From: an uncultured Alphaproteobacteria bacterium
Lineage (GTDB): Bacteria > Pseudomonadota > Alphaproteobacteria > RF32 > CAG-239
DNA: 64,000 nt
Direction of reading: 5' to 3'
Assembly (NCBI GenBank): GCA_934271195.1
Contig: CAKQRB010000036.1
Location: 8,171-72,170, forward strand
The notes under the pieces were generated by a model. The model did no database searches. It was not told where the DNA came from and was given only the letters and a program-made list of their open reading frames with translations. Positions 8,043 to 43,787 of the stretch are shown piece by piece (positions within the stretch are counted from its first letter, which is position 1; each line of letters begins with the position of its first letter). Made by a program: the position numbers and the translations under genes.

Positions 8043-8864
8043 CTAATTTCCGATATTAAGATTAACTTTGTTCCAACCTTCGGTTTTCTTTTCTTCCTGC
8101 GGCTTTCCGTCCTCCCAGCCGCGAACAGGCTGTTTTCGTTTGTTAATCAGCGCTTTCTGTTCTTCCGTCTGTACCACGCCTACCGGCAACAGCTGGTTCA
8201 GCAAAGCCGGCGACACGAAATCCTGCCGTTTTTTCAGCATCGGATCAACAATACTGTCAACCTTGTCGGCAGACGGCTTCAAGTTAAACGTTTTTACGGA
8301 GCCGCCGTAAAAAACCGAAAGAGAATGACAAGGCGAAGACAATAAAATGTCAGTATTATCCACTCCGCGCACAAATCGCAGCATGATTCGAGGATTAATA
8401 ATGCAATTTTCTGTTTTTTCAAAATCCACATTCTCCGGTGTCTTCAAAAAGCTGGTAACCACGTCGTCCCGCTTCTCTTTGCTCAAAACGCCGCAAAAAC
8501 TCTTTAAGGCCATGCCGTCCATGTTATATCCGGAATAGGTATTGCTGCGGCTGGCCACCTCATAACAAAAAACCTGTTCGGCGTCTGTAATGTTTTCCAG
8601 CGCCGGACGGCCGATACTGTCAATAATCGGCTGCAACACTTCGTCTTTGGCTGTTTTCTGTACACGAGGTTCGGCAGTTTGCGCCTCTTTATCACCGTCC
8701 CTGCGCCAGCCGTCCTTATTTCCCTGAAAAGACCGTACGCCCTCGGCTTCTATTCCCAGCCCCGACAGTTCATCAGCCACGCCGCCGGAAAAATCATCAG
8801 CAGCCTGAGCTTCTGAAAGCACACAAAATATTCCGACAACTATCAGCACAAACAATCTGCTCAT
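8043..8864 (-). CDS. Secreted hypothetical protein (273 aa)
   Basis: I place the start at the ATG at 8862-8864, preceded by GAGGGAGAA. The signal peptide is MSRLFVLIVVGIFCVLSEAQA. The mature protein has four Cys and no recognisable family. This is the last gene of the 12.5-8.0 kb cluster. Confidence 0.6.
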   Translation of the reverse strand: MSRLFVLIVVGIFCVLSEAQAADDFSGGVADELSGLGIEAEGVRSFQGNKDGWRRDGDKEAQTAEPRVQKTAKDEVLQPIIDSIGRPALENITDAEQVFCYEVASRSNTYSGYNMDGMALKSFCGVLSKEKRDDVVTSFLKTPENVDFEKTENCIINPRIMLRFVRGVDNTDILLSSPCHSLSVFYGGSVKTFNLKPSADKVDSIVDPMLKKRQDFVSPALLNQLLPVGVVQTEEQKALINKRKQPVRGWEDGKPQEEKKTEGWNKVNLNIGN

Positions 8865-8999
8865 CTTTTCTCCCTCTCGTTGTCTTTTTTCTGATATAGC
8901 ATAATCATTATAAAACAAAATTCCATCAAAAATCTTAACATACCAAAAAATCCCCAAGAAAAAAACCTCCGCATGACTGCGAAGGCTTTTCTCTGATGA

Positions 9000-11849
9000 T
9001 TAGAACGGATCATTATATTTAAGCGTCGGATCATTCAGACGCTCAACATACCCGCTGTCCTTGCTGGTATAACCAACTCTTACTTTCGTTAACTGGTCAT
9101 AGCGGTCAACCAATGTATCATTCTGAAAATCATTTTTTTCTTTACGACGGTTAAAGTAGCAATAAACATTGGAAATACCGACAATCTGCCTGTTCCAAAC
9201 CTCAAACAGGTTCCAGATAACGTCATCGTCAGCCCAGTTTGATCCCAGACCAATCTGGTTGGCATAAGTCTGATAGTCCTTTGCCGGATACAGGAAACCG
9301 ATCGCTGCATTCCAGCCGTAGCTGGTACCGCCGCTGTCTTTGACCGACACAAAAGACGTATTCAGCCAGGTGCTTTTCTGGAAAGTCAAGGCTTTTTTAT
9401 AGCCCTCATAAGTATCCCACTTGCCAGATTCCGGCCACATTATCGTTCTCGGATCTCGGTTGGTATGCAACTCGATTTCATTGTTAGCCCCGCTGCTTTT
9501 TTCAACTGGGTGACCGGCTTGAGCCATGGCCCAGCTGATTGGGCTCAGAGTCGCCACTTTCAAATACCCCGGAGGACAAGTCGGCGCCGGCACAAAACCG
9601 AGCCACGGACTGGTCTCGCATTTAAAGACCGAAGAAGCACAGCTTCTTACATAACTTTTGGTCGAAATCGTTCCGGAACCGAACAGCGCCGACGTATCCA
9701 ACGGGAACGAATTACCGTCAGTAGGTGTCCCGTTTCCAGACATCAACCAGTTCAAAGAACCGCCGTTGGCAGCACAGTTTTTGTTCGCACAGTATGTGCC
9801 GTCCAAAACATAAATACCCTTATTGATAAAGTCCGGCAGAATATCGCTCAGTCGAGCGCCGCCGCGCGTTATCAGCTTAATGTCGTGCATAACCGAAGTA
9901 TATGCCGGATTAACCTGATATTCGTCATAAAGTGTCTTACCGGAACTGGAAGTATACCCCGATTGGTACGCATTATCCGGCACCTTAACATGGCTCACCA
10001 AACGATCCGCCAGAATATAGCCGTTCGGGTCACTCTTATCCGTAGTTGCATCATTGTTACGCGCAATTTCAACCACGCCTTTGCGCACATAAACGCTGGC
10101 ATCCGGCTTGGTACCATCGGTATAATTTGTATCGATGGCAAAAATCTTGTCGCCGGTCGAAGAAGAGGCAATAAAGTTGGCATCATTCATAACCTTAACT
10201 TCCTTGTCTGCCGGATTCACTTCAAAAATCGTCGTATCCAAATCATTCTGAACCGTCAGCTTGGCATTGTTAATCTCAACATTCGGTGTTGTTCCCGTAC
10301 TATCAACAACCAGAGTGCCGGTTCCGTCACCGACCGCAAAATGCGGCGTATCGGCAAAAACTTCATCCGCCTTCATTTTAATCAGGTCGTCCGCAACCGA
10401 AAATCCGCCCTGACCATCAGGATCACCGACCATAAAATTATTAACCAGAATATTCACGCTGTCCGGATCAGCCACAAGGTTAAAAGCTCCAACGCAGTTT
10501 CCCTGAGCATCACGCTGTTGGCAGCCTACCCGCAATTGGTTCTTAATATCAAGATCTTCCATATTAACCGGTTTATCAAAACGAACTTCATCACGAAAAC
10601 GTGCCGGCCCGTTCACATCCAGAATATAACGAGGATCATAATCATCAGGCATATCGCCGACAACCAGATGTTTTAAGTTAGACGTTCCGTCAACAGTCAA
10701 ATTTGCATTGATTGTCGTATTACCGGCATCATCAACCCTGAAGTTTCCGCCGCCTGCGGTCAGGCTTCCGACAATTTCGGCGCTGCCGGCTTTCAGCAGT
10801 TCTTTAATTGTTGCGGTCAAAGCCTCCAAATGACCTCCGATAGTCGCATCGCCGGTCACATCAAGCTTGCCTCCTACGGTAGCATCGCCACCCACGTCAA
10901 ATTTTCCGTCAACATTACCGTCTCCGCCCACGTCAATATTTCCGCCGATATTAGCATTACCGCCTGTTCCGTCTGCACCTTTCTCAATAGTCAGACCGCT
11001 GCCGTCTTTCAGCAAAATAGCCTGATCTTTCTCACCCAAACCATTACCGGTCACAATCATCTGTTTCACGTTTTCAATATTATGATGAGCTTTGTCATCA
11101 CCCATATAAAGCGTGGTTTCCATTGTATTCAGCCATGGTTCTTCTTCCATTCTCACTCGGTGCAAAACGTTCTCGCCGCTGTTGTTACCCTTGGAAATTG
11201 CCCGAAGAGACGTCGCCATAATGGTATTTTCTTTCAGATTCGCTGTATTCACCCCGAAATCGGCCGGATCAATCGTCCAAACGCCTTGCACACCCTGAAT
11301 AACCTTCTTGTTATTAATGGTTCGGCAAATACCGGCATTTGTACCAATCATTGAAGCAATGCGCGAGGCTCTGAGAATAGGCATTTCCTGTGTTTCCGCC
11401 GGCGTAGTTACCAGCAGAGCCGTCAAATCATGGCGCTCGTTATTGTCAAAATCGCGTTTTTTAACAATAACTTCCATGTTTTTAAAAGTTTTTGAACTGG
11501 CGTTAAAACCATAAGGCAGATATTCGCAAAAATGCTCAAGCGGCACGGTTTCAATCCCGCCGGAAAAATCATACTTTTTGCTTGTGGCACCGGCACAGTT
11601 TGAGGTCACGGTCTTGGAACCGTCTCCTAATCCGATAATCATGTTATAGTTGTCAGACAAATAAGTATCAATCCCATCCATCACTATACGGACTTGTCCG
11701 GCAGCGTTAATATCCTGCAGTTCGGTTGTTCTTTCCGCCGCTTTTTTATAAAGCATCGGAGTAACCATGGCAATCAGGCCCAACATGGCCATTGCCTCAA
11801 TCAACAGACTTCCTGCCTGCGATTTCTTTTCATCAAAAACCCGAACCAT
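9000..11849 (-). CDS. Giant (~949 aa) protein with a type IV prepilin-like leader and a Gly/Asp-rich repeat region
   Basis: I place the start at the second ATG, 6 nt after AGGAGA. The leader reads MVRVFDEKKSQAG|SLLIEAMAMLGLIAMV, which is a short basic leader, a Gly, then Glu at +5 inside a hydrophobic helix. The central region has GGNANIGGNIDVGGDGNVDGKFDVGGDATVGGKLDVTGDATIGG repeats. The C-terminal ~300 aa are Cys- and Trp-containing. Confidence 0.7.
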   Translation of the reverse strand: MVRVFDEKKSQAGSLLIEAMAMLGLIAMVTPMLYKKAAERTTELQDINAAGQVRIVMDGIDTYLSDNYNMIIGLGDGSKTVTSNCAGATSKKYDFSGGIETVPLEHFCEYLPYGFNASSKTFKNMEVIVKKRDFDNNERHDLTALLVTTPAETQEMPILRASRIASMIGTNAGICRTINNKKVIQGVQGVWTIDPADFGVNTANLKENTIMATSLRAISKGNNSGENVLHRVRMEEEPWLNTMETTLYMGDDKAHHNIENVKQMIVTGNGLGEKDQAILLKDGSGLTIEKGADGTGGNANIGGNIDVGGDGNVDGKFDVGGDATVGGKLDVTGDATIGGHLEALTATIKELLKAGSAEIVGSLTAGGGNFRVDDAGNTTINANLTVDGTSNLKHLVVGDMPDDYDPRYILDVNGPARFRDEVRFDKPVNMEDLDIKNQLRVGCQQRDAQGNCVGAFNLVADPDSVNILVNNFMVGDPDGQGGFSVADDLIKMKADEVFADTPHFAVGDGTGTLVVDSTGTTPNVEINNAKLTVQNDLDTTIFEVNPADKEVKVMNDANFIASSSTGDKIFAIDTNYTDGTKPDASVYVRKGVVEIARNNDATTDKSDPNGYILADRLVSHVKVPDNAYQSGYTSSSGKTLYDEYQVNPAYTSVMHDIKLITRGGARLSDILPDFINKGIYVLDGTYCANKNCAANGGSLNWLMSGNGTPTDGNSFPLDTSALFGSGTISTKSYVRSCASSVFKCETSPWLGFVPAPTCPPGYLKVATLSPISWAMAQAGHPVEKSSGANNEIELHTNRDPRTIMWPESGKWDTYEGYKKALTFQKSTWLNTSFVSVKDSGGTSYGWNAAIGFLYPAKDYQTYANQIGLGSNWADDDVIWNLFEVWNRQIVGISNVYCYFNRRKEKNDFQNDTLVDRYDQLTKVRVGYTSKDSGYVERLNDPTLKYNDPF

Positions 11850-11866
11850 TGTTTTTCTCCTCATCC

Positions 11867-12532
11867 TTACTCAAACGGCGTTACATAAACCAGACAGCGG
11901 TTACAGTTTGCACAGGCGCAGGCTGTGCTGAAATTTCCGTTGTCAACCACATAATTGGGAATATATACCATCGTATCCTCGCGTCCCTTAACCGCCATTT
12001 TATAATTTTTATCGCCGCTGTGTCCGCCTGAAGCCTTGTCAGACGGATCCAAATGAACGGCATAGCCGAAACTGGTATCCACTCCCAAAATATTTTGCGT
12101 GGCTTTCAGCAAATCGTTCGTCGGCGTATTCGAACTCAGGTTAAGCCACTTTGGCGGAATATACCCGTAAGTTATCAAATACTTCATGGCATCGGGAGAC
12201 GTACAGTCGGCAATCCCCTGATCCCAGTCGTCTTTTCTCAGGCAATAGAGCTCTGTGGTAAAACTTCCGTTACAATTATACCCGTAGGGCAGAAAATTTT
12301 TCAGGGTCGTATCGCAAGCCAGCTCTTCTTCCAGATAAGACATGCCGGTTTTGTTCAACGGCGATGCCAGCCACCGGATATATTCCTGCCCTGCGCGCTG
12401 TTGGATAACCAGTTGCGAAACCACAACCTCGGCCTGCGGCTCAATCTTAACTTCCCGCATATCGCCGCGGACAGAAAGATTATATGAATACAACAGCACC
12501 ATAAAGGTTGCCAAAATCATCCAGATATACAT
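11867..12532 (-). CDS. Hypothetical signal-anchored Cys-rich protein (221 aa)
   Basis: The N-terminal hydrophobic helix is MYIWMILATFMVLLYSY. The protein has nine Cys, including the C-terminal CACANCNRC. Its stop lies 15 nt upstream of the giant gene's start. An in-frame TAG directly upstream rules out a longer N-terminus. Confidence 0.55.
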   Translation of the reverse strand: MYIWMILATFMVLLYSYNLSVRGDMREVKIEPQAEVVVSQLVIQQRAGQEYIRWLASPLNKTGMSYLEEELACDTTLKNFLPYGYNCNGSFTTELYCLRKDDWDQGIADCTSPDAMKYLITYGYIPPKWLNLSSNTPTNDLLKATQNILGVDTSFGYAVHLDPSDKASGGHSGDKNYKMAVKGREDTMVYIPNYVVDNGNFSTACACANCNRCLVYVTPFE

Positions 12533-12805
12533 TGCCTAAAGTTCCTAAAAAAAACCGTTTTTTATTACTATAATAGCATCAAATGCCCAAAATTCATAAT
12601 AAAAAACAACCGGCTTGCTCAGAATTCACAAAACTGTAACAACAAATTATCACCAACTTTATCAGAAAAAACATAATTAAAGGTTAAAATCGCTGTTTTC
12701 CGCCGTTTTTTTTGAAGTTTAATTTGATAAGTGCGTTTTTTGCATTTATTTCTGAAAAAAATGTTCTAAAATAAGTCAAATTGCAAAAAACGACGGAGTA
12801 TTCTG

Positions 12806-15587: not shown

Positions 15588-18500
15588 ATGAACGCAGCAA
15601 AGCGCAGTACTCCAAGCTTAAAGCAATATATCAGAACAATATTGCTTTTTGCGCTTCTGACTTTTTTTGCCCAAACTGCCTTTGCCCAAAATACACAAGA
15701 AGAAAAACTGATAAGCCTGCCGATTGGTGTAAATAATGACTACAAACTTGAAAATATGCCGCGCTCAATCAGCCTGACCTTTAATCTCCCTCTGCTTGAA
15801 ACGCCGGAAGACTTTAGCAAAATATTGCCGGATTTCATTGAAAAACAAGAATTATCCGCAGATAAAACCCGCATGTTTCTGACTTTGCGACACCCTCTTA
15901 TCACCCTGACATCATTAAAAGACGGCATTTTGAGAATCAGTCTCAAACAGCAGCAAAGCCCAACCAATTCGGAAAAATCAAATAACATTGCCATAAGCTA
16001 TGGCGAACACCGGAATTACTACCGCTTTGTCTTTAAATATGATCAGCCGCCGCTTTATTCCGTCAAATCTCAGGACATGCAAACCTCGGTTTATTTCCTG
16101 AACAATGTCAGTCTGCAGACCGAAAACCTTAAATCTTATCCTTTTTATCCGGCTGTCACGATATCGCCCAATAGTATGGGCGGACAAACGCTGACAATTC
16201 CGGCGGCCATGGTAAAATCAGCAGAATACGACAACAAAATCGTTATTGACGTGTCAAAAGTTTCTGAAGGAAAGGTTTTTGATGACAGCACAGCCGAAAT
16301 CAAAATCTCCGGCATAAACTTGCCTGAAACATCTCCTTCCGCTTTGGAAAACCTGACATCGGAACAGCCTTATACCGATAAAAGAATTATCAGTCTGGGC
16401 TTTTCGTGGAACTCTCCGACCAATATTGCCGTTTTCCGTCGGGAAAACTATTTGTGGATTATCTTTGACCAAAGAAAAAAAATAGATAAGGAACAACTGC
16501 TTACCGATGCAGCGCCGCTAGCTGAAGAGATTGTTCTTATTCCGCATACCAAAGCCACGGTCATCCGCCTCAAAACCAAACCAAATGTCAAAGCCAATCT
16601 CCGTAAAGAAGGCTTGCTCTGGATTATTGACCTTTCCGTTACCGGATTTGAGGAAAAAATAAAAGATATGAACATTTTTACGCGCTATGACAGCCTGAAT
16701 CACCCTTACTTTTTTATTGCGACAACAATGGCCGGTAACATTATCTCCGTCGTAGACCCCGAAATCGGCGATAATTTGATTGCAGCAACCGTTTCTGATG
16801 TTGAAAGCGGTATCAGCGCCCCTTATTCTTATCCGGATTTTGACTTTTTACGCTCACTTACCGGTGTGGCGGTCGTCCCCAAAAATACGGACTTAAATAT
16901 TGAACGCGGCAATACCGGCGTAATAATCAAAGCCATTCGCGGCCTGAATATCTCTGCCGATTTGGACTACAAAAAACGCCAGCAAAACTTATTAAACGCT
17001 AAAGAAGACGAGCTTGGCTTTGATTTAAGTCTCAGCGCAGGCCTTACCGGCATGAACTATGCCGAGGGCGTGTCCCAGCTACAAAAAGATATAGAACGCG
17101 CGCCCCAAAACAAAAAAAATGCCGCCCGCCTGATGTTGGTTCGTTACTACATTTCTTATGGTCTGGGTGCCGAAGCTTTGCAAGAACTCCGACGGCTGAC
17201 ACAAATGCCGGAGTATCATCAAACAGAAGAAACAGAAGCGTTGCTCGGAGTCGCAAACTTTTTGCTGCGCCGTTATGATGCCGCCATGGAGCACCTGTCT
17301 TTCGGCGCACTGCCGTCCGACAATCAGGCGGTTTTCTGGCGTACATTATCTTCCACGGCACAAGAATACAAAAAAGAAAATAATATCATTCTGACATCTT
17401 ACATTTCTTTGATTAAAGACTATCCGATAGCGCTGAAAGCACGGATAGCCCTTGTCGCGGCAGACAATGCCCTAAATGCCAGCGATGATTTGGCTGCACA
17501 AAATTTTATAGATGTCCTGAACAACATTGACAGTAAAAACCTCTATTATCAGGCGCGCATTGGCTATTTAACGGCCAAACGCCGCGTTTTGCAGGGATAC
17601 CCGCGTAATGGCATAAAATTATATAACAACATAGCCGCTTCCTTGTCGCAAAAATATTCCGCTCTGGCCAGATACGAAGCCGCCGTCTTGGAACAGAAGC
17701 TAGGCATGCAGCCTCTGGCAAAAATAATCCGCAAACTGGAACAATTACACTATGCCTGGCCGGACAAAAAATTCCGTTTACAAGTACTGCGGACTTTGGC
17801 GGATTATTACATCCGTAGCTCGGACTACCTCAATGCCTTAAGAAAACTAAATTTGAGCATGAGTCTGGAAACGGAAGATGAAAAACCGCGAACCCTGAAA
17901 AGAATGGTAAACATTTTAGAAGACATATACATCAACAACCGCGCGGATAATCTGCCGCCGCTGAAATCTCTGGCAATATATAAAGAATTTGAATGGCTGG
18001 CGCCCCAAAGCCGGAATTACAATGAAATCATCAGGCGGCTGGCTGACCGTCTGGTCGCGGTTGATTTGTTGCCCCGCGCCTATTCCCTTTTGCAAAACCA
18101 GCTTCGTTTCAGCCGTCTGAATGACAAAGAACGCGCTGCAGTCGGAACCAGGCTAGCCTTAATCAGCTTGTTTGAAGACAAAAATATTGATGCTCTCAAT
18201 TTTCTGGATCAGACCCAAAGCACCGATATTAACGCCACGCTGAAGGCTCAGCGCAAAATCATCCGTGCCAAAACGCTTTCCAACCTTGATCGGAACGAAG
18301 AAGCAATAGACCTGCTGAAAGATGACTACAGCAAAAACGCCCTGTTACTGAAAAGCGAGATTTATTGGAACGCCGGAATGTGGAACGAGGCCTCGGACAG
18401 CATCAGATATCTGGTAGAAGCCCCGCAGACTGGAAAACCATTGAGTCAGGAACAAATCGGCTATATTCTGGATTGGGCGACCACACTGCAAAAAGCAGGC

Positions 18501-18722
18501 AAGACAACAGTTTTAGTCAGACTGCGCAACAAGTTTTTGCCTTATTTTGAAAATACCAAATACTATAGCCCATTTAGCATATTAACCGGCAATCTGGAAA
18601 ATGATAAAATCGACCTGAAAGCCATCAGTCAAACAATCAATGACGTTCAGGCATTCAGTAATTTTACCAAATTGTATAACGATTCGCTCAAAAACGACCA
18701 TTTAGACACCCAAAATAAATGA
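15588..18722 (+). CDS. Large periplasmic protein (1044 aa) with a beta-rich N-terminal half and a TPR-like helical C-terminal half
   Basis: The signal peptide is [15 protein letters not shown]|QN. The C-terminal ~550 aa are helical-repeat-like (for example [45 protein letters not shown]). It is co-directional with and packed against fliL-fliM-motE-like. Confidence 0.6.
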
Positions 18723-20772: not shown

Positions 20773-21558
20773 TTATTTGTTCTTCATGGCATCAATTCTT
20801 CTTTGAATTTCGCCTTCATCAAGCGTTTGCAAAATCTGACCATCCAAAATCATGGTCGGAACACCGCGAATTTCAATAGAATTAGCCAAATCGGCAGTAT
20901 CCTGAATGGTTTTATTAACTTTGTCCGAATTCATGTCTACTTTCATTTTGGCAACATCAATGCCGACAGCAGCCGCGAGCTCGTCAATTTTAGCTTCGCT
21001 CAATGCGCCGTCATTTTCCATCATGGCAGACCAAAGTTCCTGATATTTACCCTGTTCTTTGGCAGCCAAAGCGGCTTTGGCAGCATAATCAGATACCGGC
21101 CCGAGGAAGGTCAGTTCTCTCAATACCAGACGAACATCGTTGTTTTTGGCAACAATATTCTTCAAAGCCGGATATAATCTGTGGCAGTAGCCGCAGGAGA
21201 AATCAAAGAACTCTACCAGAGTAACAGATCCGTTCGGATTACCGACAACAGCAGCACCTTCATACTCTGTAATTTCTTTAATATTCTGCTTAATCTTTAT
21301 GGCAGCGGCTTTTTGTCTTTCTTCTTCCTGCTTAACCTGATAAGCCTGCATTGCATTGAACACAATCTCCGGATTGTCGTTCAAAACAGTCTTGATTGCC
21401 TCAACATCCATAGAGACAACCGGAGCAGTCGAAGCCGCGGGAGCAGATGTCTCTGCAACAGGAGCGGCTTTGTTGCATTTGGTCATGCACATTACTGCAC
21501 AGGCAACCGAAATAATCAAAGCCAGCAGAGAAACGTAAATTGCATTAATTTTGTTCAT
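20773..21558 (-). CDS. DsbA-family thiol:disulfide oxidoreductase (Com1-like, membrane-anchored or secreted)
   Basis: I place the start at the ATG at 21556-21558, after AAGGA. It has an N-terminal hydrophobic segment and the thioredoxin-fold active site FFDFSCGYCHRL. Confidence 0.85.
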   Translation of the reverse strand: MNKINAIYVSLLALIISVACAVMCMTKCNKAAPVAETSAPAASTAPVVSMDVEAIKTVLNDNPEIVFNAMQAYQVKQEEERQKAAAIKIKQNIKEITEYEGAAVVGNPNGSVTLVEFFDFSCGYCHRLYPALKNIVAKNNDVRLVLRELTFLGPVSDYAAKAALAAKEQGKYQELWSAMMENDGALSEAKIDELAAAVGIDVAKMKVDMNSDKVNKTIQDTADLANSIEIRGVPTMILDGQILQTLDEGEIQRRIDAMKNK

Positions 21559-21719
21559 CTTACAAATCCTTAAGTTTATTAAATACAAATATAATTTAGC
21601 TAATCTATAATATATTTACAACAGGCATAATAATTCATAATTGTTAATATTCTCCAAATATCTAAATCTTTTTTTCATATTTAGGCAATATACTGAAACA
21701 AACTAAAAAAGGGGATAAT

Positions 21720-37277: not shown

Positions 37278-40200
37278 TTAAGCACTATACCCGCCCCCTC
37301 GCGGATCAATATCTCTATTAGGCAATGGTGGTGTCTTAAGAGTATTCTGTGCCATGTTCGGTTCATTAGACACTGATTTTGCCGCCGTGGCTTCTTCCAC
37401 GCTTTTACCCTGTCTGAGCGCTTCCAACTTTTCAGCCCTTGAAAGTTCCTGCGGCTGCTGTTCCGCGGCCTTGTCCCCATGAACCATCGTTTGCAGCTCT
37501 TCATTCAGCTTCTCAACATCGGGTTTGCCGGCAGCCGGCTGAGTTTCTGCCACAGATTGCTCGGCTGTATGCGCATCTTGCGGATTTCCGAAAGTTTTTT
37601 CAGCCTCCTGAGCAAACAGCTGAGCATCTTGCTCTCCCCTTATCTGCGCATCGGCCAACATCACATCACTGTATTGTTCACTCGATAAATTCTTCTCAAG
37701 AAAAGCTAGTTCCCTGTCGCTGAAATGACCGGCTTCCTGACCAATCCGCACGGCAATGGCTTCATGAAGCTGCTCGCTTCCCAGCAGTCCGATTTCCTCG
37801 GCATTATGGGTCTGGATTTCCCCATTGTCACCCAGAGAAAACTCTACCGTCTTTCCGCTGACCGGATCCTGCACGCCGTATATTTTGTTTGCCTCTGCCT
37901 GAGCCTGCATTTGCTCGTTAACGCCGGCAATATCCGGTTGCTCGGTTTCGAGGCCGGCAATTGCACCGGCTTCCAGCGGCGTAGCAGTCAAATCCGGACG
38001 TTCAGTTTCCTGCTGAACAACAGACTCTTGCGACGGAGTTTCCTGCGCCTGAGGCTCCTGTACCGGAGCTTCCTGCTCAACCGCCGGTTTTTCAGGCTCA
38101 TTCGCCCAGCCCTCTCCGCCGTCACGGTCTATATAATCGGAAATGCCGTCATTATTCTTGTCCAACATCGGCGGCGTCTGCTGCTCGGTCGGCCGTTCAA
38201 TATAATCAGAAATACCGTTGTTATTTTCATCAACCATTGCCGGCGCTTCCGAAACCGTACTGTCAACCGTTGTCGTAGCTTCATGTGAAGTCTGTCCGGC
38301 AATCACGGCCCAAGCCGTACCGGCACCGGCAATACCGGCCGCCCCCATCGCTTTCCACACACTGCCTCCGGCTTTTCGTACTTCTCTGAAAGCTTTGATG
38401 GTTGAACCGACACCCAATGCAATCCCTGACGTTGCTTTAGCATTTGTCAAAGATTTTACAACCTCCGGCGCCAAATCAACTGCTGCCATACCGGCCGTGG
38501 CTGCACCGAGAGCTGTCATTGCCGCGCCGGCCAGAGCCATTTTATTGTTTTTTAAGAAAGACCAGAGCTTGAGCTTTTTGCCCTTTTTGGCCATTTCTTC
38601 TTTTTGTTTCTTATATTCCTTGCGCAGCTTCAAAGCCTGATTCGCCAAAGATGCCGTTGCCACAACCGCTACACCGGCCGGACCGAATGCGGCGCCGGCA
38701 GCATAATACGCTCCTGACCATGCCGCAGTCTTGGCCAAAGATTTAAGCATTGCATACTGCTTAGGCGCTGCATTTTTAGCTGTCTTGTCATCTAGATTCT
38801 TACCTTGTTCCCGTAATTTTGCAACACCAGCATTGCCTTTTCCGACCTTGCTCTCCAGACGGGCGGCAAAACCCTCGCGCGCTTCGCTCTGTGCCGCCAA
38901 ATACCCTAACAATGCCCCTTTTCCAACCTGAATCTTGTGACCTTTGGCATAATCATCAATAGCTTTGCTGCCGCCGGCAACCACGCTCTCGACACCTGCC
39001 AGTCTGCTGACTTCCGCCACAATATTCGCGGCAAATTCTTTATTAAATTCTGCCGGTTCAATCGGCCCCGGTTTGGTACCGGCCATGCTTTCCATCGTCT
39101 GCAGACGGATACTCTCCAGCAGCTGAGCCTTTAATTCGTCATTATCCTTGCTCTTAGCCTTGCCGGTCATCTTAACGCCGTCCGTAATCTCCAGATTGTC
39201 AAACAGCGCCATGGCATCAGCCATTTCCGGATGCTTCGGCTTCGGATTCGTCTGAGCCTCTTTCCGATTCTTGTCTAAAATACCCTTGGCTTTCTCATAC
39301 TTCTTGGCCGGAAACATTGACTCCGACAGGTGCGAAGCCTTCTCCAGCAGAAAATCCATGCTGCTCAGTTCATCGGCGGGGACTTCCTTGCCGACCTTTG
39401 TCAGCTTAGCGGCAATCGCCTTTTCCAACGCCTCAGCATCTGGCCCCATTGTGCCAAAAGCATTGGAAGCCGACAAAGACGCCAGCGTTTTCATATCAAA
39501 ATCTTTACCCTGTCGCAACTCGGCCATTGCTTTCTCAGCTTCGTCTTTCGACATCGGTTTGACCGGTTCTTCTTTATATTCCGCCTTGTCAAGAGCATCT
39601 TTGCCCATTTCGCTCATGGCGGCAATATTCTCCGAAACCCGCTCTGCGTCTTCCGAAGTCATCATCGCCAATCCATGCTCTTTATCATAAGTCTCGGTAA
39701 ACTCTTTCAGCTTTCCCTCACAGGCTTCGGCCAGTTCGGTAATTCGCGGCTCATCAAAAGTCCCGTTGACAACCTTGCGGGAGTCATACAGTTTACCCTC
39801 TACTTTGGTAAAAATTTCAAAAGCCTTGCCTGCACTTTCCCTACGGTTTGACATCGGAATGGCGTCAAGCAAAACCTGCGCTGCAGCCAAATCCTCTTTT
39901 TTGATAAAATCATTCTTGCCCATGGCGGCAATATCATTCAGCCTGCGCCCGACAGCCTCGTCAACGCGCTGCTTGTCAAAACCTTCCGGATTCTTGTCCA
40001 TTTCGACTTTTAGCGCTGCCAAATCATGCAGGCTCAGTTCGCTCAAATCTTTGTCTTTATCTTTAGAAATATTCTGCGCCGTCACCGTATGCATGCCGGT
40101 AATCGGTTCTTCCTGATAAGGCTCTTTTTCCGGCAGACGCTCTTTGGCAGCCCGCAACATGGCCTGCATACCGCCGGCCCATTCTATCGGCGTTTCAATC

Positions 40201-40610
40201 TCGCCGTTGGCATAGGCCTGCATTTTTTCTTCCATGGCCAGCCGGACTTTGCCATAGCCGAGTACAGCATCTTCATTGCCTTCAGCTGCCGCTGTCCGCA
40301 ACACATTGTTCATTTCGGCTAAATCATTCGGATTCAAATTGTACAATTCTTTGCCGTCAGCCGCCTTAATCGCATCTTCAAGCTTCATCGGCTCTTTTTG
40401 CTCAACAACGGCCGCTTCCTGCTCCGGCTCTTTGAACTTGTCGGCATGAGCCTGAGCTTCCGTAGTTTGGGGAGCATAAACATCGCTGAGAACAGCTTTT
40501 TGTTCTCCGTCAAGGGAATCCCAGGTTGCACCTTCCGGCAAAGGCTTGCCGGTTTCATTCTCATAATAGTCCCGCTGTTCCTGAGTCAATACATTAGATT
40601 CATCAGCCAT
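37278..40610 (-). CDS. Giant hypothetical protein P1 (1110 aa), paralog of the next gene
   Basis: This is one long uninterrupted ORF with a GGAG RBS and no Sec signal. It has a helical N-terminal ~620 aa and central Gly/Ala-rich hydrophobic hairpins (AAWSGAYYAAGAAFGPAGVAVVATASLA, MALAGAAMTALGAATAGMAAV, AMGAAGIAGAGTAWAVIAG). These are followed by two DxNxDGISDYI motifs and an acidic Pro/Gln-rich tail. Confidence 0.7.
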   Translation of the reverse strand: MADESNVLTQEQRDYYENETGKPLPEGATWDSLDGEQKAVLSDVYAPQTTEAQAHADKFKEPEQEAAVVEQKEPMKLEDAIKAADGKELYNLNPNDLAEMNNVLRTAAAEGNEDAVLGYGKVRLAMEEKMQAYANGEIETPIEWAGGMQAMLRAAKERLPEKEPYQEEPITGMHTVTAQNISKDKDKDLSELSLHDLAALKVEMDKNPEGFDKQRVDEAVGRRLNDIAAMGKNDFIKKEDLAAAQVLLDAIPMSNRRESAGKAFEIFTKVEGKLYDSRKVVNGTFDEPRITELAEACEGKLKEFTETYDKEHGLAMMTSEDAERVSENIAAMSEMGKDALDKAEYKEEPVKPMSKDEAEKAMAELRQGKDFDMKTLASLSASNAFGTMGPDAEALEKAIAAKLTKVGKEVPADELSSMDFLLEKASHLSESMFPAKKYEKAKGILDKNRKEAQTNPKPKHPEMADAMALFDNLEITDGVKMTGKAKSKDNDELKAQLLESIRLQTMESMAGTKPGPIEPAEFNKEFAANIVAEVSRLAGVESVVAGGSKAIDDYAKGHKIQVGKGALLGYLAAQSEAREGFAARLESKVGKGNAGVAKLREQGKNLDDKTAKNAAPKQYAMLKSLAKTAAWSGAYYAAGAAFGPAGVAVVATASLANQALKLRKEYKKQKEEMAKKGKKLKLWSFLKNNKMALAGAAMTALGAATAGMAAVDLAPEVVKSLTNAKATSGIALGVGSTIKAFREVRKAGGSVWKAMGAAGIAGAGTAWAVIAGQTSHEATTTVDSTVSEAPAMVDENNNGISDYIERPTEQQTPPMLDKNNDGISDYIDRDGGEGWANEPEKPAVEQEAPVQEPQAQETPSQESVVQQETERPDLTATPLEAGAIAGLETEQPDIAGVNEQMQAQAEANKIYGVQDPVSGKTVEFSLGDNGEIQTHNAEEIGLLGSEQLHEAIAVRIGQEAGHFSDRELAFLEKNLSSEQYSDVMLADAQIRGEQDAQLFAQEAEKTFGNPQDAHTAEQSVAETQPAAGKPDVEKLNEELQTMVHGDKAAEQQPQELSRAEKLEALRQGKSVEEATAAKSVSNEPNMAQNTLKTPPLPNRDIDPRGGGYSA

Positions 40611-40833: not shown

Positions 40834-43710
40834 TTAATAATCCCAACTGTTACTTTTAGCCTTCATTTTAGCCATTTTTGCAGCTTCTTTCTCAGCCTTT
40901 GCCGCCTCTTTGGCAGCTTCTTTTTCGGCTTTTGCGGCTTCTTTGGCAGCCTGCTTCTCAGCTTTTTCCGTTTCTTTTTCAAGCTGACGCATTTCTTTGT
41001 CTGTCATCAGGCCGTCCGGATCTTTGCGATAAGCTTCCAGTAACAGTTCACGGTCAACATTCTGGTTAATGGCAATATAACCTTTGTCATCAATAAACAG
41101 ACCGCGTTTGGCCAGATGCTTGTCCATCCAATCCATCCATTCCTCAGCGCCTTTAATAGTTTCGCCTTCGGACAGACGATTATGCAGGTCATAATAAACC
41201 TCGCTGTAAGCCGCATAACGGCGGGACATTGTTTCCGGCTTGTCGGTAAAGCCTTCCAAATGGGCAGCCACTTCATCGGCATATTTGTCTTCCGGCATTT
41301 CATACTGAATTTGTGCCGCACCGTTATAGAAGCTATACTCAACCTTACCGCCGTTAGCCATTGCAATTTTTCCGGCGACGGCATCTGCCTCAATTATCGG
41401 ATTAGGCTCGCCTTTGTTGCCGTCAACGTCATAATCATAACCCTGAGCGGCTTCTTTCTCAGGAATAGGCGCATCATAAAAGTCATAATCATAACCTTTG
41501 ATTTTATCCTGAGAAACATTGTCAAGCGTAACATGTTCCACAATCTTGCCCTTATAAATCTTGGCCGGATCTGTTTCTTGTGCAGGCTCTACAGGTTGAA
41601 CAGGCTCTACAGGCTCAGGTTCAACAGGTTCTGCCGGCTCTGGATTAACAGGCGCATTATCAACCGGCTCCGGCTGTGTCGGTTCCGGATTGCAGCGGGC
41701 AAAATCGTCAGCCAATCTGACACCGCCGGTATTTTGCGTATTTTCCCAGCACAGCGGATTACCGTGATTGTCATAAGAATTCATACCGCGGGCAATATCA
41801 ATATAATCATTTTGTGTCAACTGGCCGCCGCAGGCTTTCTCAATCATGTCGACCAAAACTCTCTGTTCGGGAATATTATTGGCCTTCATAATGGCATATT
41901 TATAAACAAATTCTTCTTTGTTATCAATACCTTCAAAGTCACCCAGATTCAAAACCGGCTTATCACCTTCAAACAAGCCGTACAAAGCATTGGTTAAATC
42001 ATCGCCGAGGAAGTGACGGTTACGATTGTCCCAAAACTCTGTATGCAGGGTATGATCTCTGGCCTGAGCCTCAATCTTGCCGTTGCAGTCGCCGTCGTCG
42101 ATATTCTGTTCTGCACTCTGCTGCTGATTGCCACGCAAAGCATTTTCAATCTCCTCACACGGATCCTGTTCCGTACCGGCTGTTGTCGTTGTATCCGCAC
42201 CGTCGGAAACTTGTGTGGAACCTTCTGCCGCGCTGCTTTGAGCGGCTGGATCGACTTTGGCCTCGTTCAAATCTCTGCCATCCGGCAAAGTCAGGCCGCT
42301 TTTCTCGGAAACATCAGAATCCGACCGAACGGCTCCGGACATCACATGATAGTTCACGACAAATGCCAGCGCCGTCAAACCGGCTTTTAGCCATGCCTGT
42401 TTTTGGCCTTCGCCTTTATTATAGGCATCTTTGATATCCACGGCATTCTTCAGAGCAACCGTACCATAAGCAAGCGTTGCACGCGTTTTGCTGGCATATC
42501 CGATCAGCGAATTGACCGTTGTCGAATTCAACTGTCCGCCGGCAGCCTGCAAAGCGGCATTTCCGGCATTATAACCGGCCACGCCCAAAGCCAGAACACC
42601 GGAAACCGCGGTCAAAGCATTCAGCTTGTTGTCTTTCAGAAAAGCGCCGAATGTCTTATACTCTTTCCGGCTGTTTTTCCAAGACTGAACCATCGGTTTC
42701 ATACCGTTATAAGAAGCATACACACCATATGCAGCCAGACCGGCCGGCCCGAGGGCACCGGCAGCCAGCAGCATTCCGGTACTTGCGCCGATATTGGATA
42801 CAACCTTAATCGCCGTTTTGGCAGCGTTATAACGCTTACCGTATTTTTTGGACCATTTGTCATCCAGCTGCGAAATTTTCTTGTTCAGTTTGGCCAATAC
42901 AGGAATATTGCCCAGTTTGGTTTTAATGCGATCTTTAATGCTTTCAGTTCTGTCCAGCGTTGTCGCCAGATAACCCATAACAGCATCGCCGTTAACTTTA
43001 AGCGTGCTGTTTTCTTTATCCGTAACGGCAATAGCCTGATCCAAAGTTGCCTTAATTGACATGTCCAAAGACTTGTTGGCTTCTGCGCCGGCTTTTGAAA
43101 TGGCAGTACCGGTCAGCATACTGTAAACGGCCAGCTCAATATTGCTCTTCAAATTCTCGACATATTTGGCCTCGTCAAGTTTTCCGTCAACCAAACTGTC
43201 CGTATAAGCATTCAGTCTGACGGCCTCCAAAACATCTGTCTTTGTATCTTGGTCAAGATCCATTCTGTCAAGAAGCTTCCGCCCGTTTGACTCAAATTTG
43301 CTGTCTGCAATATCATGCTTTTGCTCAAATTCTTCAAGCTTGGCGGCATTGGTTTTAATCGTCTCGGCATCAACGTTAACGTCATTAAGCTTTTTATAAA
43401 CATCAAAAGCTTCCTGCGCGGTCTTGCCGCTGGTCATGCCTTTAATAGCCTCACCGTCCGCATCTTTGCCGTAAATTTTAATCAGCTCCTCAAAAACATC
43501 CATATCTTTGGGATTGAGTTGATAAATACCTTCGGCAAACTGCGCCATCATATTTGTTCCGACAAAATCCTTCAATTTGGCAAAAGCTTCGACACCTTCT
43601 TTTCCTGCTGCCGGCAAAGTTTTAGCCAAATTAACCAAATCATCGTTGGAAAAGGCTTCAAACTCCCCGTCGTTAATCATCTGAATTGCATTTTGAGCAT
43701 CTATAGCCAT
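40834..43710 (-). CDS. Giant hypothetical protein P2 (~958 aa), paralog of P1
   Basis: I place the start at the ATG after TAGGAG (MAIDAQNAIQ). It shares sequence blocks with P1 (see findings). The central hydrophobic hairpins include IGASTGMLLAAGALGPAGLAAYGVYASY. It also has a Cys-containing middle domain, a PEPV-type proline repeat and an AKEAAKAEKE tail repeat. Confidence 0.7.
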   Translation of the reverse strand: MAIDAQNAIQMINDGEFEAFSNDDLVNLAKTLPAAGKEGVEAFAKLKDFVGTNMMAQFAEGIYQLNPKDMDVFEELIKIYGKDADGEAIKGMTSGKTAQEAFDVYKKLNDVNVDAETIKTNAAKLEEFEQKHDIADSKFESNGRKLLDRMDLDQDTKTDVLEAVRLNAYTDSLVDGKLDEAKYVENLKSNIELAVYSMLTGTAISKAGAEANKSLDMSIKATLDQAIAVTDKENSTLKVNGDAVMGYLATTLDRTESIKDRIKTKLGNIPVLAKLNKKISQLDDKWSKKYGKRYNAAKTAIKVVSNIGASTGMLLAAGALGPAGLAAYGVYASYNGMKPMVQSWKNSRKEYKTFGAFLKDNKLNALTAVSGVLALGVAGYNAGNAALQAAGGQLNSTTVNSLIGYASKTRATLAYGTVALKNAVDIKDAYNKGEGQKQAWLKAGLTALAFVVNYHVMSGAVRSDSDVSEKSGLTLPDGRDLNEAKVDPAAQSSAAEGSTQVSDGADTTTTAGTEQDPCEEIENALRGNQQQSAEQNIDDGDCNGKIEAQARDHTLHTEFWDNRNRHFLGDDLTNALYGLFEGDKPVLNLGDFEGIDNKEEFVYKYAIMKANNIPEQRVLVDMIEKACGGQLTQNDYIDIARGMNSYDNHGNPLCWENTQNTGGVRLADDFARCNPEPTQPEPVDNAPVNPEPAEPVEPEPVEPVQPVEPAQETDPAKIYKGKIVEHVTLDNVSQDKIKGYDYDFYDAPIPEKEAAQGYDYDVDGNKGEPNPIIEADAVAGKIAMANGGKVEYSFYNGAAQIQYEMPEDKYADEVAAHLEGFTDKPETMSRRYAAYSEVYYDLHNRLSEGETIKGAEEWMDWMDKHLAKRGLFIDDKGYIAINQNVDRELLLEAYRKDPDGLMTDKEMRQLEKETEKAEKQAAKEAAKAEKEAAKEAAKAEKEAAKMAKMKAKSNSWDY
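40881..40975 (-). repeat. Roughly 2.8 copies of a 33-bp in-frame tandem repeat at the 3' end of P2
   Basis: Plus-strand units are GCAGCTTCTTTCTCAGCCTTTGCCGCCTCTTTG, GCAGCTTCTTTTTCGGCTTTTGCGGCTTCTTTG and GCAGCCTGCTTCTCAGC... These encode (AKEAAKAEKEA)n. Confidence 0.7.
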
Positions 43711-43758
43711 TTTAAAAACTCCTAACAAAATTCTACTTGACGCGATAATAACGCATTT

Positions 43759-43787
43759 TTTAGAATATTTCAACAACTTTTTGTCAA
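43759..43787 (-). promoter_or_regulatory. Candidate sigma-70 promoter for P2
   Basis: On the minus strand the sequence reads TTGACA-N17-TCTAAA, about 50 nt upstream of the P2 start. Confidence 0.35.

What the first reader, a model, noticed from the sequence alone, without database searches (positions are those of the whole stretch)
8043..12532. Three-gene cluster around a ~950-aa protein with a prepilin-type leader, with no pilus machinery nearby
The minus-strand cluster runs in this order: a 221-aa signal-anchored Cys-rich protein, then 15 nt later a ~949-aa protein, then after a 135-nt gap a 273-aa secreted protein.

The giant protein begins with a class III (type IV prepilin or pseudopilin-like) signal. 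It then continues for more than 900 residues, roughly five-fold larger than ordinary pilins. It contains a Gly/Asp repeat region and a Cys/Trp-rich C-terminal domain. None of the three proteins matches a family I recognise.

No prepilin peptidase, assembly ATPase, platform or secretin gene is in the window. The cluster is divergent from the fliL-fliM flagellar operon. It could be a tip adhesin displayed on a pilus or pseudopilus encoded elsewhere, or an uncharacterised surface-fibre system.
Basis: partly seen in the sequence, partly recalled or inferred. Interest (0 to 1): 0.7.

Follow-up and report, generated by a model that had tools for sequence, protein, structure and literature searches.

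The report
Giant PilV-type pilus tip protein module
An uncultured gut alphaproteobacterium carries, beside its flagellar genes, a 949-residue oversized relative of PilV (the tip adhesin of type IVb "thin" pili) with a small pilin-shaped partner and usually a secreted third protein; hundreds of related gut species share the module, but no pilus-building machine lies nearby.

Summary
Three minus-strand genes (A 221 aa, B 949 aa, C 273 aa) lie divergent from fliL-fliM. B has an invariant prepilin site (Gly-1, Ser+1, Glu+5). No pilus machinery is in the window.

Behind this head come a variable beta-rich stalk and a strongly conserved 360-residue Cys/Trp domain with no known relatives.

A is a leaderless protein with a pilin-like topology and weak profile similarity to B's head and to PilM, the usual neighbour of pilV. 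C is a Sec-secreted orphan protein and is only loosely linked.

A directly precedes B in 72 of 73 species loci with enough upstream sequence. The family occurs in at least 264 species, all uncultured gut Alphaproteobacteria.

Best reading: a dispersed type IVb tip module of the modular-pilin kind, served by a peptidase and machine encoded elsewhere. Unverified notes report an R64-like pil cluster elsewhere in this genome.

This is a new variant of a known kind, of moderate interest.

The parts
11867..12532 (-). Gene A: 221-aa bitopic protein. It has a leaderless N-terminal membrane helix (MYIW...) and a periplasmic Cys-containing domain. It is a pilin-like, possibly PilM-like, partner of B.
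   Evidence: ORF. The N-terminus always starts M-Y-[ILV]-W, with no leader, in 67 homologues. C97 and C110 are invariant, and C205 and C213 are present in at least 90%. AlphaFold2 gives pLDDT 83.8 and pTM 0.78, with helices 3-16 and 23-56 followed by a six-strand sheet. hhalign to the B head gives Prob 67%, E 5e-5, with a shared YLPYGF motif. hhalign to a PilM profile gives Prob 44%, E 2e-4. There are no Pfam hits in any of 67 members. A lies directly upstream of B in 72 of 73 informative species loci.
11652..11849 (-). B residues 1-66: a 13-residue leader, the prepilin cleavage site (G13|S14, Glu at +5) and the long alpha-1 helix.
   Evidence: Sequence. Gly-1 is present in 77/77, Glu+5 in 78/78, and alpha-1 has mean column conservation 0.84. 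The model shows a helix over residues 2-66. The IncI2 PilV site KG|VSLLEV aligns with B's AG|SLLIEA.
11040..11651 (-). B residues 67-270: globular PilV-type pilin head.
   Evidence: hhalign of the family profile against IncI2 PilV: Prob 97.9%, E 6e-13, B 10-259 aligned to PilV 2-217. tblastn of B 1-290 hits 690 plasmid records; the records listed carry annotated pilV at the match (one has no annotation there). The best listed E is 1e-6. Relative P0041 hits PF04917 at E 1e-11, above the gathering score. AlphaFold2 pLDDT is 74-87 here.
10080..11039 (-). B residues 271-590: variable beta-rich stalk, including the Gly/Asp hexad repeats.
   Evidence: This is the least conserved part (0.32), and its length ranges from 303 to 462 aa among homologues. 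In the model, short strands recur every 6 residues over 297-354, with pLDDT 64-77. Relatives give faint Bactofilin and LbH Pfam hits. It resembles phage tail-fibre-like proteins only generically (E 1e-5 but TM below 0.1).
9000..10079 (-). B residues 591-949 plus the stop codon: conserved Cys/Trp-rich C-terminal domain of unknown fold, the presumed functional (binding) module.
   Evidence: 92 of 359 columns are at least 90% conserved, and there are four conserved Cys. Invariant blocks include NPAYTSVMHDIKL..RGGARLSDILPDFINKGIY. No Pfam, NCBIfam or PDB sequence hit was found. Model confidence is low, pLDDT 40-68.
8043..8864 (-). Gene C: 273-aa Sec-secreted protein with four invariant Cys. In most lineages the mature N-terminus carries a conserved peptide (GVQSFQQxxDAWRR), followed by a variable linker.
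   Evidence: ORF, alignments. C101, C125, C155 and C180 are invariant. The N-terminal motif is present in all but one of the 40 aligned C sequences whose gene flanks A-B. It is replaced by W[QK]PNP, or absent, where C lies about 6 kb away beside pheA. No Pfam or PDB hit was found. Only 87 representative clusters among 1.84 billion proteins reach E<=1e-3.
12625..12641 (-). Conserved element about 105 nt upstream of A (TGTTACAG-N4-TGTGAA; in relatives TGTTACAGATATGTTAAAT). It is a direct TGT[TG]A repeat with an 11-bp period and a candidate regulator site for A-B.
   Evidence: The TGTTACA core is present in 36 of 59 distinct A|fliL spacers, and in 34 of them it lies 98-112 nt from the A start. 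It is the only match in the 64-kb window, against 0.01 expected.
12673..12687 (-). Conserved TTAAC-N6-TTAT box (CtrA-box-like, one mismatch to TTAA-N7-TTAA) in the middle of the divergent A|fliL spacer.
   Evidence: A TTAAC/TTTAAC core was found in 47 of 59 spacers. In about 35 of them it lies 140-190 nt from the A start, mostly as TTTTAAC[CT]xxTAATTAT. The window has 2 matches against 0.87 expected, so the motif alone is not significant. Assignment to CtrA is inference.
12717..12732 (-). Conserved ACTTAT[TC]AAA..AAAC box about 75 nt from the fliL start, probably part of the fliL promoter.
   Evidence: Its k-mers are present in 30-37 of 59 spacers. The function is inferred.

Best explanation
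A-B, with C as a frequent third gene, is the tip module of a type IVb (R64/PAPI-1 'thin pilus' class) pilus. In this lineage of uncultured gut Alphaproteobacteria it is encoded apart from the assembly machine.

Shown:
- B is a modular minor pilin. It has a PilV-type prepilin leader and head, a variable beta-rich stalk, and a strongly conserved C-terminal domain.
- A is an obligatory, probably translationally coupled partner with a leaderless membrane helix.

Inferred:
- An A24 prepilin peptidase cleaves B after Gly13.
- B's alpha-1 helix docks it at the start of filament assembly, so B ends up at the pilus tip, possibly as an oligomer like TcpB and CofB.
- The stalk holds the conserved C-terminal domain away from the filament, where it binds a conserved ligand (host, mucus or partner cell).
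- A, like PilM next to pilV in other systems, helps prime or load B at the inner membrane.
- C may be a periplasmic or secreted partner that docks on B through its conserved N-terminal peptide, as TcpF and CofJ do on TcpB and CofB.
- The neighbouring DsbA would supply the disulfides.
- The machine is probably the R64-like pil cluster that first-stage notes report elsewhere in this genome. This is unverified.
For: PilV homology of the B head:
- hhalign Prob 97.9%, E 6e-13 over 214 columns, including the leader and cleavage site.
- tblastn of B 1-290 hits 690 plasmid records; the records listed carry annotated pilV at the match (one has no annotation there). The first 300 aa of relative P0041 hit 2528 records, with E to 1e-16.
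- PF04917 scores above its gathering cut-off in relatives.

Selection on processing and assembly features:
- Gly-1 and Glu+5 are invariant and alpha-1 conservation is 0.84, while the leader is variable.

Structure:
- In the model of B, residues 2-66 form a helix followed by a sheet, with pLDDT 74-87.

Partner A:
- A directly precedes B in 72 of 73 informative loci.
- It has a pilin-like topology at pLDDT 83.8 and weak profile links to the B head and to PilM.
- pilV-pilM adjacency is seen in pKLC102 and a Xanthomonas plasmid and in PAPI-1 and Burkholderia Tfp7. The last two also lack their own peptidase gene (PMC3984277).

Precedents:
- Modular pilins are a known and widespread design (PMC8179133).
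- Secreted partners hooking their N-terminus onto type IVb minor pilins are known (PMC9565799; PMC6048534).

C:
- It has a Sec signal, then a conserved N-terminal peptide, then a variable linker.

Lead only:
- Notes e1-4795159, e1-4795160, e1-4795161 and e1-4795164 describe pilL-N-O-P-Q-R plus three pilS-like genes. The notes list nothing after pilS before a possible island boundary, and as shown they name no pilV, pilM or pilU.
Against: - No pilus machine, peptidase or major pilin is in the window or within 7-10 kb of A-B in about 80 related genomes (1.45 Mb searched).
- The whole genome could not be searched, so the machine's existence rests on unverified notes.
- A-B is a core, lineage-wide module, whereas R64-like clusters next to a T4SS are usually mobile and sporadic.
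- The window's own B misses Pfam's PF04917 threshold.
- Fold searches gave no significant pilin match for B or A. The best pilin hits were TcpB at E 0.34 and CofB at E 0.82.
- The A-PilM similarity is weak, and PF07419 hits none of the 67 A proteins.
- PilV C-termini are normally hypervariable, whereas B's is highly conserved.
- C is not always linked to A-B and has no detectable relation to TcpF or CofJ. No sequence comparison with them was made.
- A-B is almost always next to flagellar genes.
Confidence: 0.55

Rival explanations
1. A-B is a former pilin pair that now works without any type IV filament machine. It would form an inner-membrane-anchored periplasmic or polar envelope structure functionally tied to the flagellum, for example a motor- or pole-associated scaffold. 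The prepilin-like N-terminus would then act as a membrane anchor or as a target of a lone peptidase.
For: - fliL-fliM lies next to A-B in 64 of 80 species loci and in three gene orders: divergent from fliL, upstream of fliL on the same strand, and between fliL and fliP.
- The A|fliL spacer carries conserved boxes.
- No pilus gene lies near A-B in any relative.
- Earlier agents on other genomes reported finding no machine. These are leads only.
Against: - The same syntenic block also always includes uvrB, a gene with no flagellar role, so adjacency is explained by conserved synteny. The change from the first gene order to the second is a simple in-place inversion of A-B.
- None of A, B or C resembles a flagellar protein.
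- Invariant Gly-1 and Glu+5 and a near-invariant alpha-1 helix are the signature of peptidase cleavage and filament packing, not of a plain anchor.
- At least 4 loci with full flanks lack fliL/fliM but keep A-B.
Confidence: 0.13
2. B is specifically the recipient-recognition adhesin of a conjugative thin pilus belonging to the T4SS/ICE reported elsewhere in the genome. Its role would be to stabilise mating pairs for DNA transfer, as with R64 and TP114 PilV, and not general adhesion.
For: - The closest known relatives are conjugative-plasmid and ICE PilV proteins.
- In IncI2 the T4SS and the type IVb pil genes are contiguous, the same pairing that notes describe for this genome.
- TP114 PilV adhesins set conjugation specificity in the gut (PMC9045228).
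Against: - There is no shufflon. No rci-type recombinase and no set of inverted repeats lies around B.
- The C-terminal domain is highly conserved, the opposite of recipient-specific variable PilV tips.
- A-B is chromosomal, syntenic and present in at least 264 species. This is not expected of a part of a mobile element.
Confidence: 0.15
3. C is merely a neighbouring gene with an unrelated periplasmic function, and the functional unit is the A-B pair only.
For: - C is directly downstream in only 37 of 80 loci. It lies beside pheA, 5-7 kb away, in 13 loci and is absent from flanks of at least 5 kb in 12.
- The core domain of C has weak relatives in unrelated-looking lipoproteins.
- There is a 135-nt gap between B and C and no sign of translational coupling.
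Against: - C stays within 7 kb of A-B in 62 of 80 loci, in at least three gene orders.
- Its conserved N-terminal peptide is present in all but one of the 40 aligned C sequences whose gene flanks A-B, and is lost or replaced where it does not. This probably reflects a single clade event.
- Full-length C relatives are few: only 33 representative clusters reach E<=1e-30.
Confidence: 0.4

Closest known systems
PilV, the minor pilin and tip adhesin of R64/IncI1, IncI2 (TP114) and PAPI-1/pKLC102 type IVb thin pili (Pfam PF04917 Shufflon_N)
   Same: - Prepilin leader with the same site layout (KG|VSLLEV against AG|SLLIEA).
- Homologous alpha-1 helix and globular head over about 215 columns.
- A small leaderless membrane protein encoded next to it, like pilM.
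   Different: - B is about twice the size (949 against about 440-460 aa).
- It has no shufflon or rci.
- Its C-terminal part is a beta-rich stalk plus a conserved Cys/Trp domain, where PilV has short variable segments.
- It is encoded away from any pil operon, in a conserved chromosomal position beside flagellar genes.
- The window's protein itself scores below the Pfam threshold.
Type IVb minor pilins TcpB (Vibrio cholerae TCP) and CofB (ETEC CFA/III) with their secreted partners TcpF and CofJ
   Same: - A large modular minor pilin (pilin head plus extra beta domains) that initiates assembly and sits at the tip.
- A Sec-exported partner that binds through a flexible N-terminal peptide (PMC9565799, PMC6048534).
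- C has the same layout of signal peptide, conserved N-terminal peptide, linker and globular domain.
   Different: - There is no significant sequence or fold match (TcpB Foldseek E 0.34).
- TcpB-TcpF and CofB-CofJ are encoded inside their pilus operons.
- A B-C interaction is purely inferred.
Modular type IV pilins (e.g. Streptococcus sanguinis PilB; survey in PMC8179133)
   Same: A pilin module with a functional module grafted behind it, expected to be displayed at the tip.
   Different: - The grafted modules here match no known domain.
- At 949 aa (up to about 1100 in relatives) B exceeds the 860-aa extreme case named in that InterPro-based survey.
PilM of R64-type systems (Pfam PF07419), compared with protein A
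   Same: - Leaderless N-terminal membrane helix, followed by a helix and an LP.[GW]F motif.
- The gene is adjacent to pilV.
- hhalign of the A profile against the PilM profile covers A 6-92 and PilM 10-84.
   Different: - The hhalign result is only Prob 44%.
- There is no PF07419 hit in 67 A proteins.
- A is 221 aa with two conserved Cys pairs, whereas PilM is about 145 aa.
- The gene order is A-B, whereas it is pilV-pilM in PAPI-1-type clusters.

Membership tests
Type IV pilin / class III signal peptide proteins | Short charged leader ending in Gly, Glu at +5, then about 20 hydrophobic residues | tested here: met
   B reads MVRVFDEKKSQAG|SLLIEAMAMLGLIAMVTP. Gly-1 is present in 77/77 and Glu+5 in 78/78 homologues.
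Type IV pilin / class III signal peptide proteins | Pilin fold: long N-terminal helix packed on an antiparallel sheet | tested here: inconclusive
   The AlphaFold2 topology fits (helix 2-66 then strands, pLDDT 74-87). Foldseek against the PDB gave no significant pilin match; the best was TcpB at E 0.34.
Type IV pilin / class III signal peptide proteins | Cleavage by an A24 prepilin peptidase and assembly by an ATPase/platform/secretin machine encoded in the genome | not testable with these tools
None is present in the window. Unverified notes report an R64-like pil cluster on another contig.
PilV / Shufflon_N (PF04917) | Sequence homology to the PilV constant N-terminal region | tested here: met
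   hhalign Prob 97.9%, E 6e-13. tblastn hits pilV in 690 plasmids. Relative P0041 scores 45.2 bits against a cut-off of 27.5. The window protein alone has no Pfam hit.
PilV / Shufflon_N (PF04917) | Shufflon: alternative C-terminal segments flanked by inverted repeats, plus an Rci recombinase | tested here: not met
   No multi-copy inverted repeats occur in or after B. There is no recombinase among the neighbours. The C-terminus is conserved, not variable.
PilV / Shufflon_N (PF04917) | Encoded within a type IVb pil operon (pilL-pilV) | tested here: not met
   Only PilV-type matches were found in the window plus 90 related loci (1.45 Mb) when searched with 19 type IVb proteins.
PilM of R64-type pili (PF07419), for protein A | Match to the PilM family profile | tested here: not met
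   hmmscan of 67 A proteins gives no PF07419 hit at E<=1.
PilM of R64-type pili (PF07419), for protein A | Remote (profile-profile) homology and shared architecture: leaderless N-terminal helix, gene adjacent to pilV | tested here: inconclusive
   hhalign of A4 against a profile of 8 PilM sequences gives Prob 44%, E 2e-4, co-linear from the N-terminus. Against a single PilM it gives Prob 0.4%. The architecture and adjacency are shared.
Type IVb secreted partner proteins (TcpF/CofJ type), for protein C | Sec-exported protein encoded with the minor pilin, docking through a conserved flexible N-terminal peptide | not tested
   The layout fits (signal peptide, GVQSFQQxxDAWRR, variable linker), but no interaction model or sequence comparison with TcpF or CofJ was made. 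The link is analogy only (PMC9565799).
Flagellar structural or motor proteins | Homology to a known flagellar family | tested here: not met
   A, B and C have no flagellar Pfam or NCBIfam hit. Only gene adjacency links them to flagella.

The most novel reading that the evidence does not exclude
This whole lineage of gut Alphaproteobacteria may keep a PilV-derived giant prepilin and a leaderless pilin-like partner as core genes embedded among flagellar operons, without a dedicated type IV pilus machine. The pair would then have been co-opted into a new envelope or polar structure, for example a flagellum-associated periplasmic or surface fibre, perhaps processed by a lone peptidase.
Probability: 0.1. 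Interest if true: 0.8.

Novelty: new variant of a known kind. Interest (0 to 1): 0.45.

Why it matters
These Alphaproteobacteria are common but uncultured members of human, ruminant, rodent and bird gut communities, and almost nothing is known about how they attach or interact.

A lineage-wide, strongly conserved surface module of about 105 kDa is a good candidate for their main adhesin. Its invariant C-terminal domain, which has no known relatives, is a defined target for structural and ligand-binding work.

The module also shows an extreme case of the modular-pilin design, and a type IVb tip module encoded far from any machine. This bears on how dispersed type IV filament systems are recognised in genome annotation: none of the three genes carries any functional name in the public records seen here.

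Tried and rejected
1. Pfam and NCBIfam on the three window proteins gave nothing significant. Homology appeared only through relatives, tblastn and profile comparison.

2. PDB sequence-profile searches gave no hits for B and only noise for A and C.

3. Foldseek against the PDB for B and A gave no significant hits. Foldseek against viral structures for B gave tail-fibre-like hits with E to 1e-5 but TM below 0.1 and very large rmsd. I take these as a generic fibrous beta architecture, not homology.

4. I looked for pilus machinery in more distant gene contexts (L059, L068-L070, L073, L078). None was found. L070 has two radical-SAM/SPASM genes between B and C.

5. A search for a nearby major pilin or a second prepilin N-terminus in the window found only B.

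6. The small ORFs upstream of A in L059 and L073 are not pilins.

7. A search for normal-sized PilV relatives of B's head returned only B genes fragmented by frameshifts or contig ends.

8. A search for PilM homologues with the word-indexed tool returned only close Pseudomonas copies. I built the PilM profile from plasmid records instead.

9. sigma-54, sigma-28 and full CtrA consensus motifs in the A|fliL spacer are absent or rare. The generic promoter/terminator scan was no better than shuffles.

10. Shufflon repeats were not found.

A genome-wide search for the machine and expression evidence could therefore not be obtained.
Full report
**Observation**

The region holds three minus-strand genes exactly as described.
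- A is at 11867-12532 (221 aa, 9 Cys).
- B is at 9000-11849 (949 aa). It starts at the ATG preceded by AGGAGA, 15 nt after the A stop.
- C is at 8043-8864 (273 aa) and has a Sec-type signal peptide. It lies 135 nt after B.

fliL and fliM start divergently 273 nt upstream of A.

B begins MVRVFDEKKSQAG|SLLIEAMAMLGLIAMVTP. In an alignment of 79 homologues the leader is variable. However, Gly-1 is present in 77 of 77 ungapped sequences, Ser+1 in 73 of 79 and Glu+5 in 78 of 78, and the following alpha-1 helix is nearly invariant.

No other prepilin-like N-terminus exists in the 64 kb. No pilus peptidase, ATPase, platform or secretin is present. Pfam was run on 30 of the larger ORFs outside the trio, and tblastn was run with 19 type IVb pilus proteins.

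**What B is**

Pfam and NCBIfam find nothing in the window's own protein, but the family is large. More than 1142 clusters at 90% identity match it, and some relatives carry PF04917 (Shufflon_N, the constant N-terminal region of PilV). P0041 scores E 1e-11, above the gathering score, over residues 48-280.

Direct tests confirm the homology.
- tblastn of B residues 1-290 against 72,556 plasmids hits 690 records. The listed matches lie on annotated pilV (one has no annotation), at about 25-28% identity over about 90% of the query.
- The first 300 aa of relative P0041 hit 2528 records, with E down to 1e-16.
- hhalign of the family profile against an IncI2 PilV gives Prob 97.9%, E 6e-13 over 214 columns. 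It aligns B 10-259 with PilV 2-217, including the cleavage site (KG|VSLLEV against AG|SLLIEA) and the LYR...P.LN.M.T motif.

The AlphaFold2 model (mean pLDDT 62.5) is confident only for this head. Residues 2-66 form a helix followed by a sheet, with pLDDT 74-87.

Behind the head are two further parts.
- A stalk (residues ~271-590) is the least conserved part (0.32) and varies in length from 303 to 462 aa. In the model its strands recur every six residues, and relatives give faint bactofilin and LbH hits.
- A C-terminal domain of about 360 residues is strikingly conserved. 92 of 359 columns are at least 90% conserved, and there are four conserved Cys. It has no Pfam, NCBIfam or PDB relative and only a low-confidence model.

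Foldseek gave no significant PDB match; TcpB ranked second at E 0.34. Against viral structures it gave only generic, very low-TM resemblance to phage tail-fibre-like proteins.

B is therefore a modular type IVb minor pilin of the PilV lineage, about twice the size of PilV. It has no shufflon.

**What A and C are**

A always starts M-Y-[ILV]-W with no leader and no Glu5. Its model is confident (pLDDT 83.8, pTM 0.78). It shows a broken N-terminal helix (3-16 and 23-56) followed by a six-strand sheet, which is a pilin-like topology. Foldseek found nothing significant.

Profile comparisons give weak but co-linear links.
- A 37-88 aligns with B 49-118 at Prob 67%, E 5e-5, with a shared YLPYGF motif that also aligns with YLKSGF of PilV.
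- A 6-92 aligns with PilM 10-84 at Prob 44%, E 2e-4, using a profile of eight plasmid PilM proteins.

PF07419 itself hits none of the 67 A proteins. PilM is the small leaderless membrane protein encoded next to pilV in pKLC102, in a Xanthomonas plasmid and in PAPI-1 and Burkholderia Tfp7. The last two lack their own peptidase gene (PMC3984277). I therefore treat A as a pilin-like, possibly PilM-like partner. Membership in the PilM family is not established.

C is an orphan. It has no Pfam or PDB hit in any of 55 members. An exhaustive search of 1.84 billion representative proteins found only 87 clusters at E<=1e-3, and 33 at E<=1e-30. The weak tail consists of small uncharacterised proteins that share a C-x-F-x-P...S-x-x-C core.

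The mature C protein starts with a conserved peptide (GVQSFQQxxDAWRR), followed by a variable linker and a conserved globular part with four invariant Cys.

**Distribution and context**

A scan of one genome per species found 264 genomes encoding a B relative. All 80 loci examined come from uncultured gut Alphaproteobacteria MAGs from human, deer, rumen, mouse and chicken, including 'Candidatus Scatocola' and 'uncultured Azospirillum'.

Among those 80 species loci:
- A lies directly upstream of B in 72 of 73 with enough flank.
- C is directly downstream in 37, divergent upstream of A in 9, further away within 7 kb in 14, and in other positions in 2. It is absent from flanks of at least 5 kb in 12, and 6 more loci have too little downstream flank to tell.
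- fliL-fliM is adjacent in 64.

At least three gene orders exist.
- fliM-fliL | A-B-C.
- C | A-B-fliL-fliM, which is an in-place inversion of A-B.
- fliM-fliL | A-B | fliP, with C 6 kb away beside pheA. In this clade C lacks the GVQSFQQ peptide.

The syntenic block also always contains uvrB. Adjacency to flagellar genes is therefore not in itself evidence of a flagellar function.

A DsbA-like gene lies within about 10 kb in the contexts I annotated, in varying positions.

The A|fliL spacer carries three conserved boxes. One of them, about 105 nt upstream of A, is a direct TGT[TG]A repeat with an 11-bp period. It occurs only once in the window, against 0.01 expected. It is a candidate regulator site; the regulator is unknown.

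tblastn with 19 R64/PAPI-1-type pilus proteins against the window plus 90 related loci (1.45 Mb) found only PilV-type matches. The more divergent contexts hold no machine either. One of them (L070) has two radical-SAM/SPASM genes between B and C.

**Mechanism**

The invariant Gly-1 and Glu+5 and the near-invariant alpha-1 helix, set against a variable leader, are the signature of selection for prepilin-peptidase cleavage and packing into a filament core. Together with PilV homology, this makes a tip-located minor pilin of a type IVb pilus the best reading.

By analogy with TcpB, CofB and PilV, B would prime assembly and remain at the tip. The stalk would project the conserved C-terminal domain as the binding module. 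A would act at the inner membrane with B, as PilM does with PilV.

C may dock through its N-terminal peptide, as TcpF and CofJ do on TcpB and CofB (PMC9565799; PMC6048534).

Modular pilins are an established and widespread design. The most extreme case named in the published survey has 860 residues (PMC8179133), so B is at or beyond the known size range.

All steps after homology are inferred.

**The machine**

First-stage notes on another contig of the same genome describe an R64-like cluster, pilL-N-O-P-Q-R followed by three pilS-like genes, one of which has a G|RSMVE site. The cluster sits back-to-back with a VirB-type T4SS. The notes list nothing after pilS before a possible island boundary, and as shown to me they name no pilV, pilM or pilU. 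If correct, that cluster and A-B would be complementary. This is a lead, not evidence.

Earlier agents working on homologous modules in other genomes reached the same PilV-type reading and also left the machine open.

**Rivals**

- A machine-independent, flagellum-associated role is supported only by adjacency. The pilin-specific conservation speaks against it.
- A purely conjugative role fits the closest relatives. It does not fit the conserved C-terminus, the missing shufflon, or the core, syntenic distribution of the module.
- C may simply be a neighbour.

**Verdict**

The feature is real and is not annotated with any function in the public records seen here. It is a new, very large variant of a known kind (PilV-type modular minor pilin with a partner), widespread in an uncultured gut lineage. 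Interest is moderate, and would rise if genomes prove to lack any type IV machine.

Noticed in passing
window 53117-53119 (minus strand), within secY 52532-53884: secY is interrupted by a single in-frame TAG (...ITIQYP*RPAMLGG...), so it appears as two ORFs of 255 and 191 aa that match SecY profile positions 1-158 and 165-306. It could be an assembly or sequencing error, a strain variant or read-through. No other gene examined in the window shows in-frame stops.
   Followed up: partly
window 37278-40610 and 40834-43776 (minus strand): Two tandem large proteins (1110 and 980 aa) have no Pfam hit. Both have a helical N-terminal part, a central Gly/Ala-rich hydrophobic segment and acidic Pro/Glu-rich tails.
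   Followed up: no
window 15588-18722 (plus strand): A 1044-aa secreted protein with no Pfam hit closes the fliL-fliM-DUF6468-MgtE_N-like operon. It is conserved in that position in most relatives at 36-51% identity (90-92% in the closest), just before uvrB. It may be an uncharacterised periplasmic flagellar component.
   Followed up: no
L070 9904-14054 (Alphaproteobacteria bacterium UBA5343): In this divergent relative, two radical-SAM/SPASM enzymes and two unknown proteins (224 and 315 aa) are inserted between B and the C homologue, all on the same strand. They may be a maturation system for the Cys-rich proteins, or an unrelated insertion.
   Followed up: partly
window 20773-21588 (minus strand); L001 108-860; L007 15878-16600; L009 9084-9827; L052 11583-12341: A DsbA-family oxidoreductase gene lies within about 10 kb of A-B in every context annotated, but at different positions and on either side. 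This fits the disulfide-rich A, B and C proteins, but it may be synteny only.
   Followed up: partly
L100 (1.78-Mb contig, ERZ1948697 contig_452): This is a long, possibly near genome-sized single contig of a relative that carries the A-B module. Many of its genes, uvrB, fliM and B among them, are split into fragments, which looks like uncorrected frameshift errors. It would be useful for a whole-genome machinery search once frameshifts are tolerated.
   Followed up: no
window 8873-8899 and 12657-12683: A 27-nt inverted repeat, 78% complementary and containing TTTTTTCTGATA, links the spacer upstream of C to the box-2 region upstream of A. It is probably chance in AT-rich spacers.
   Followed up: no
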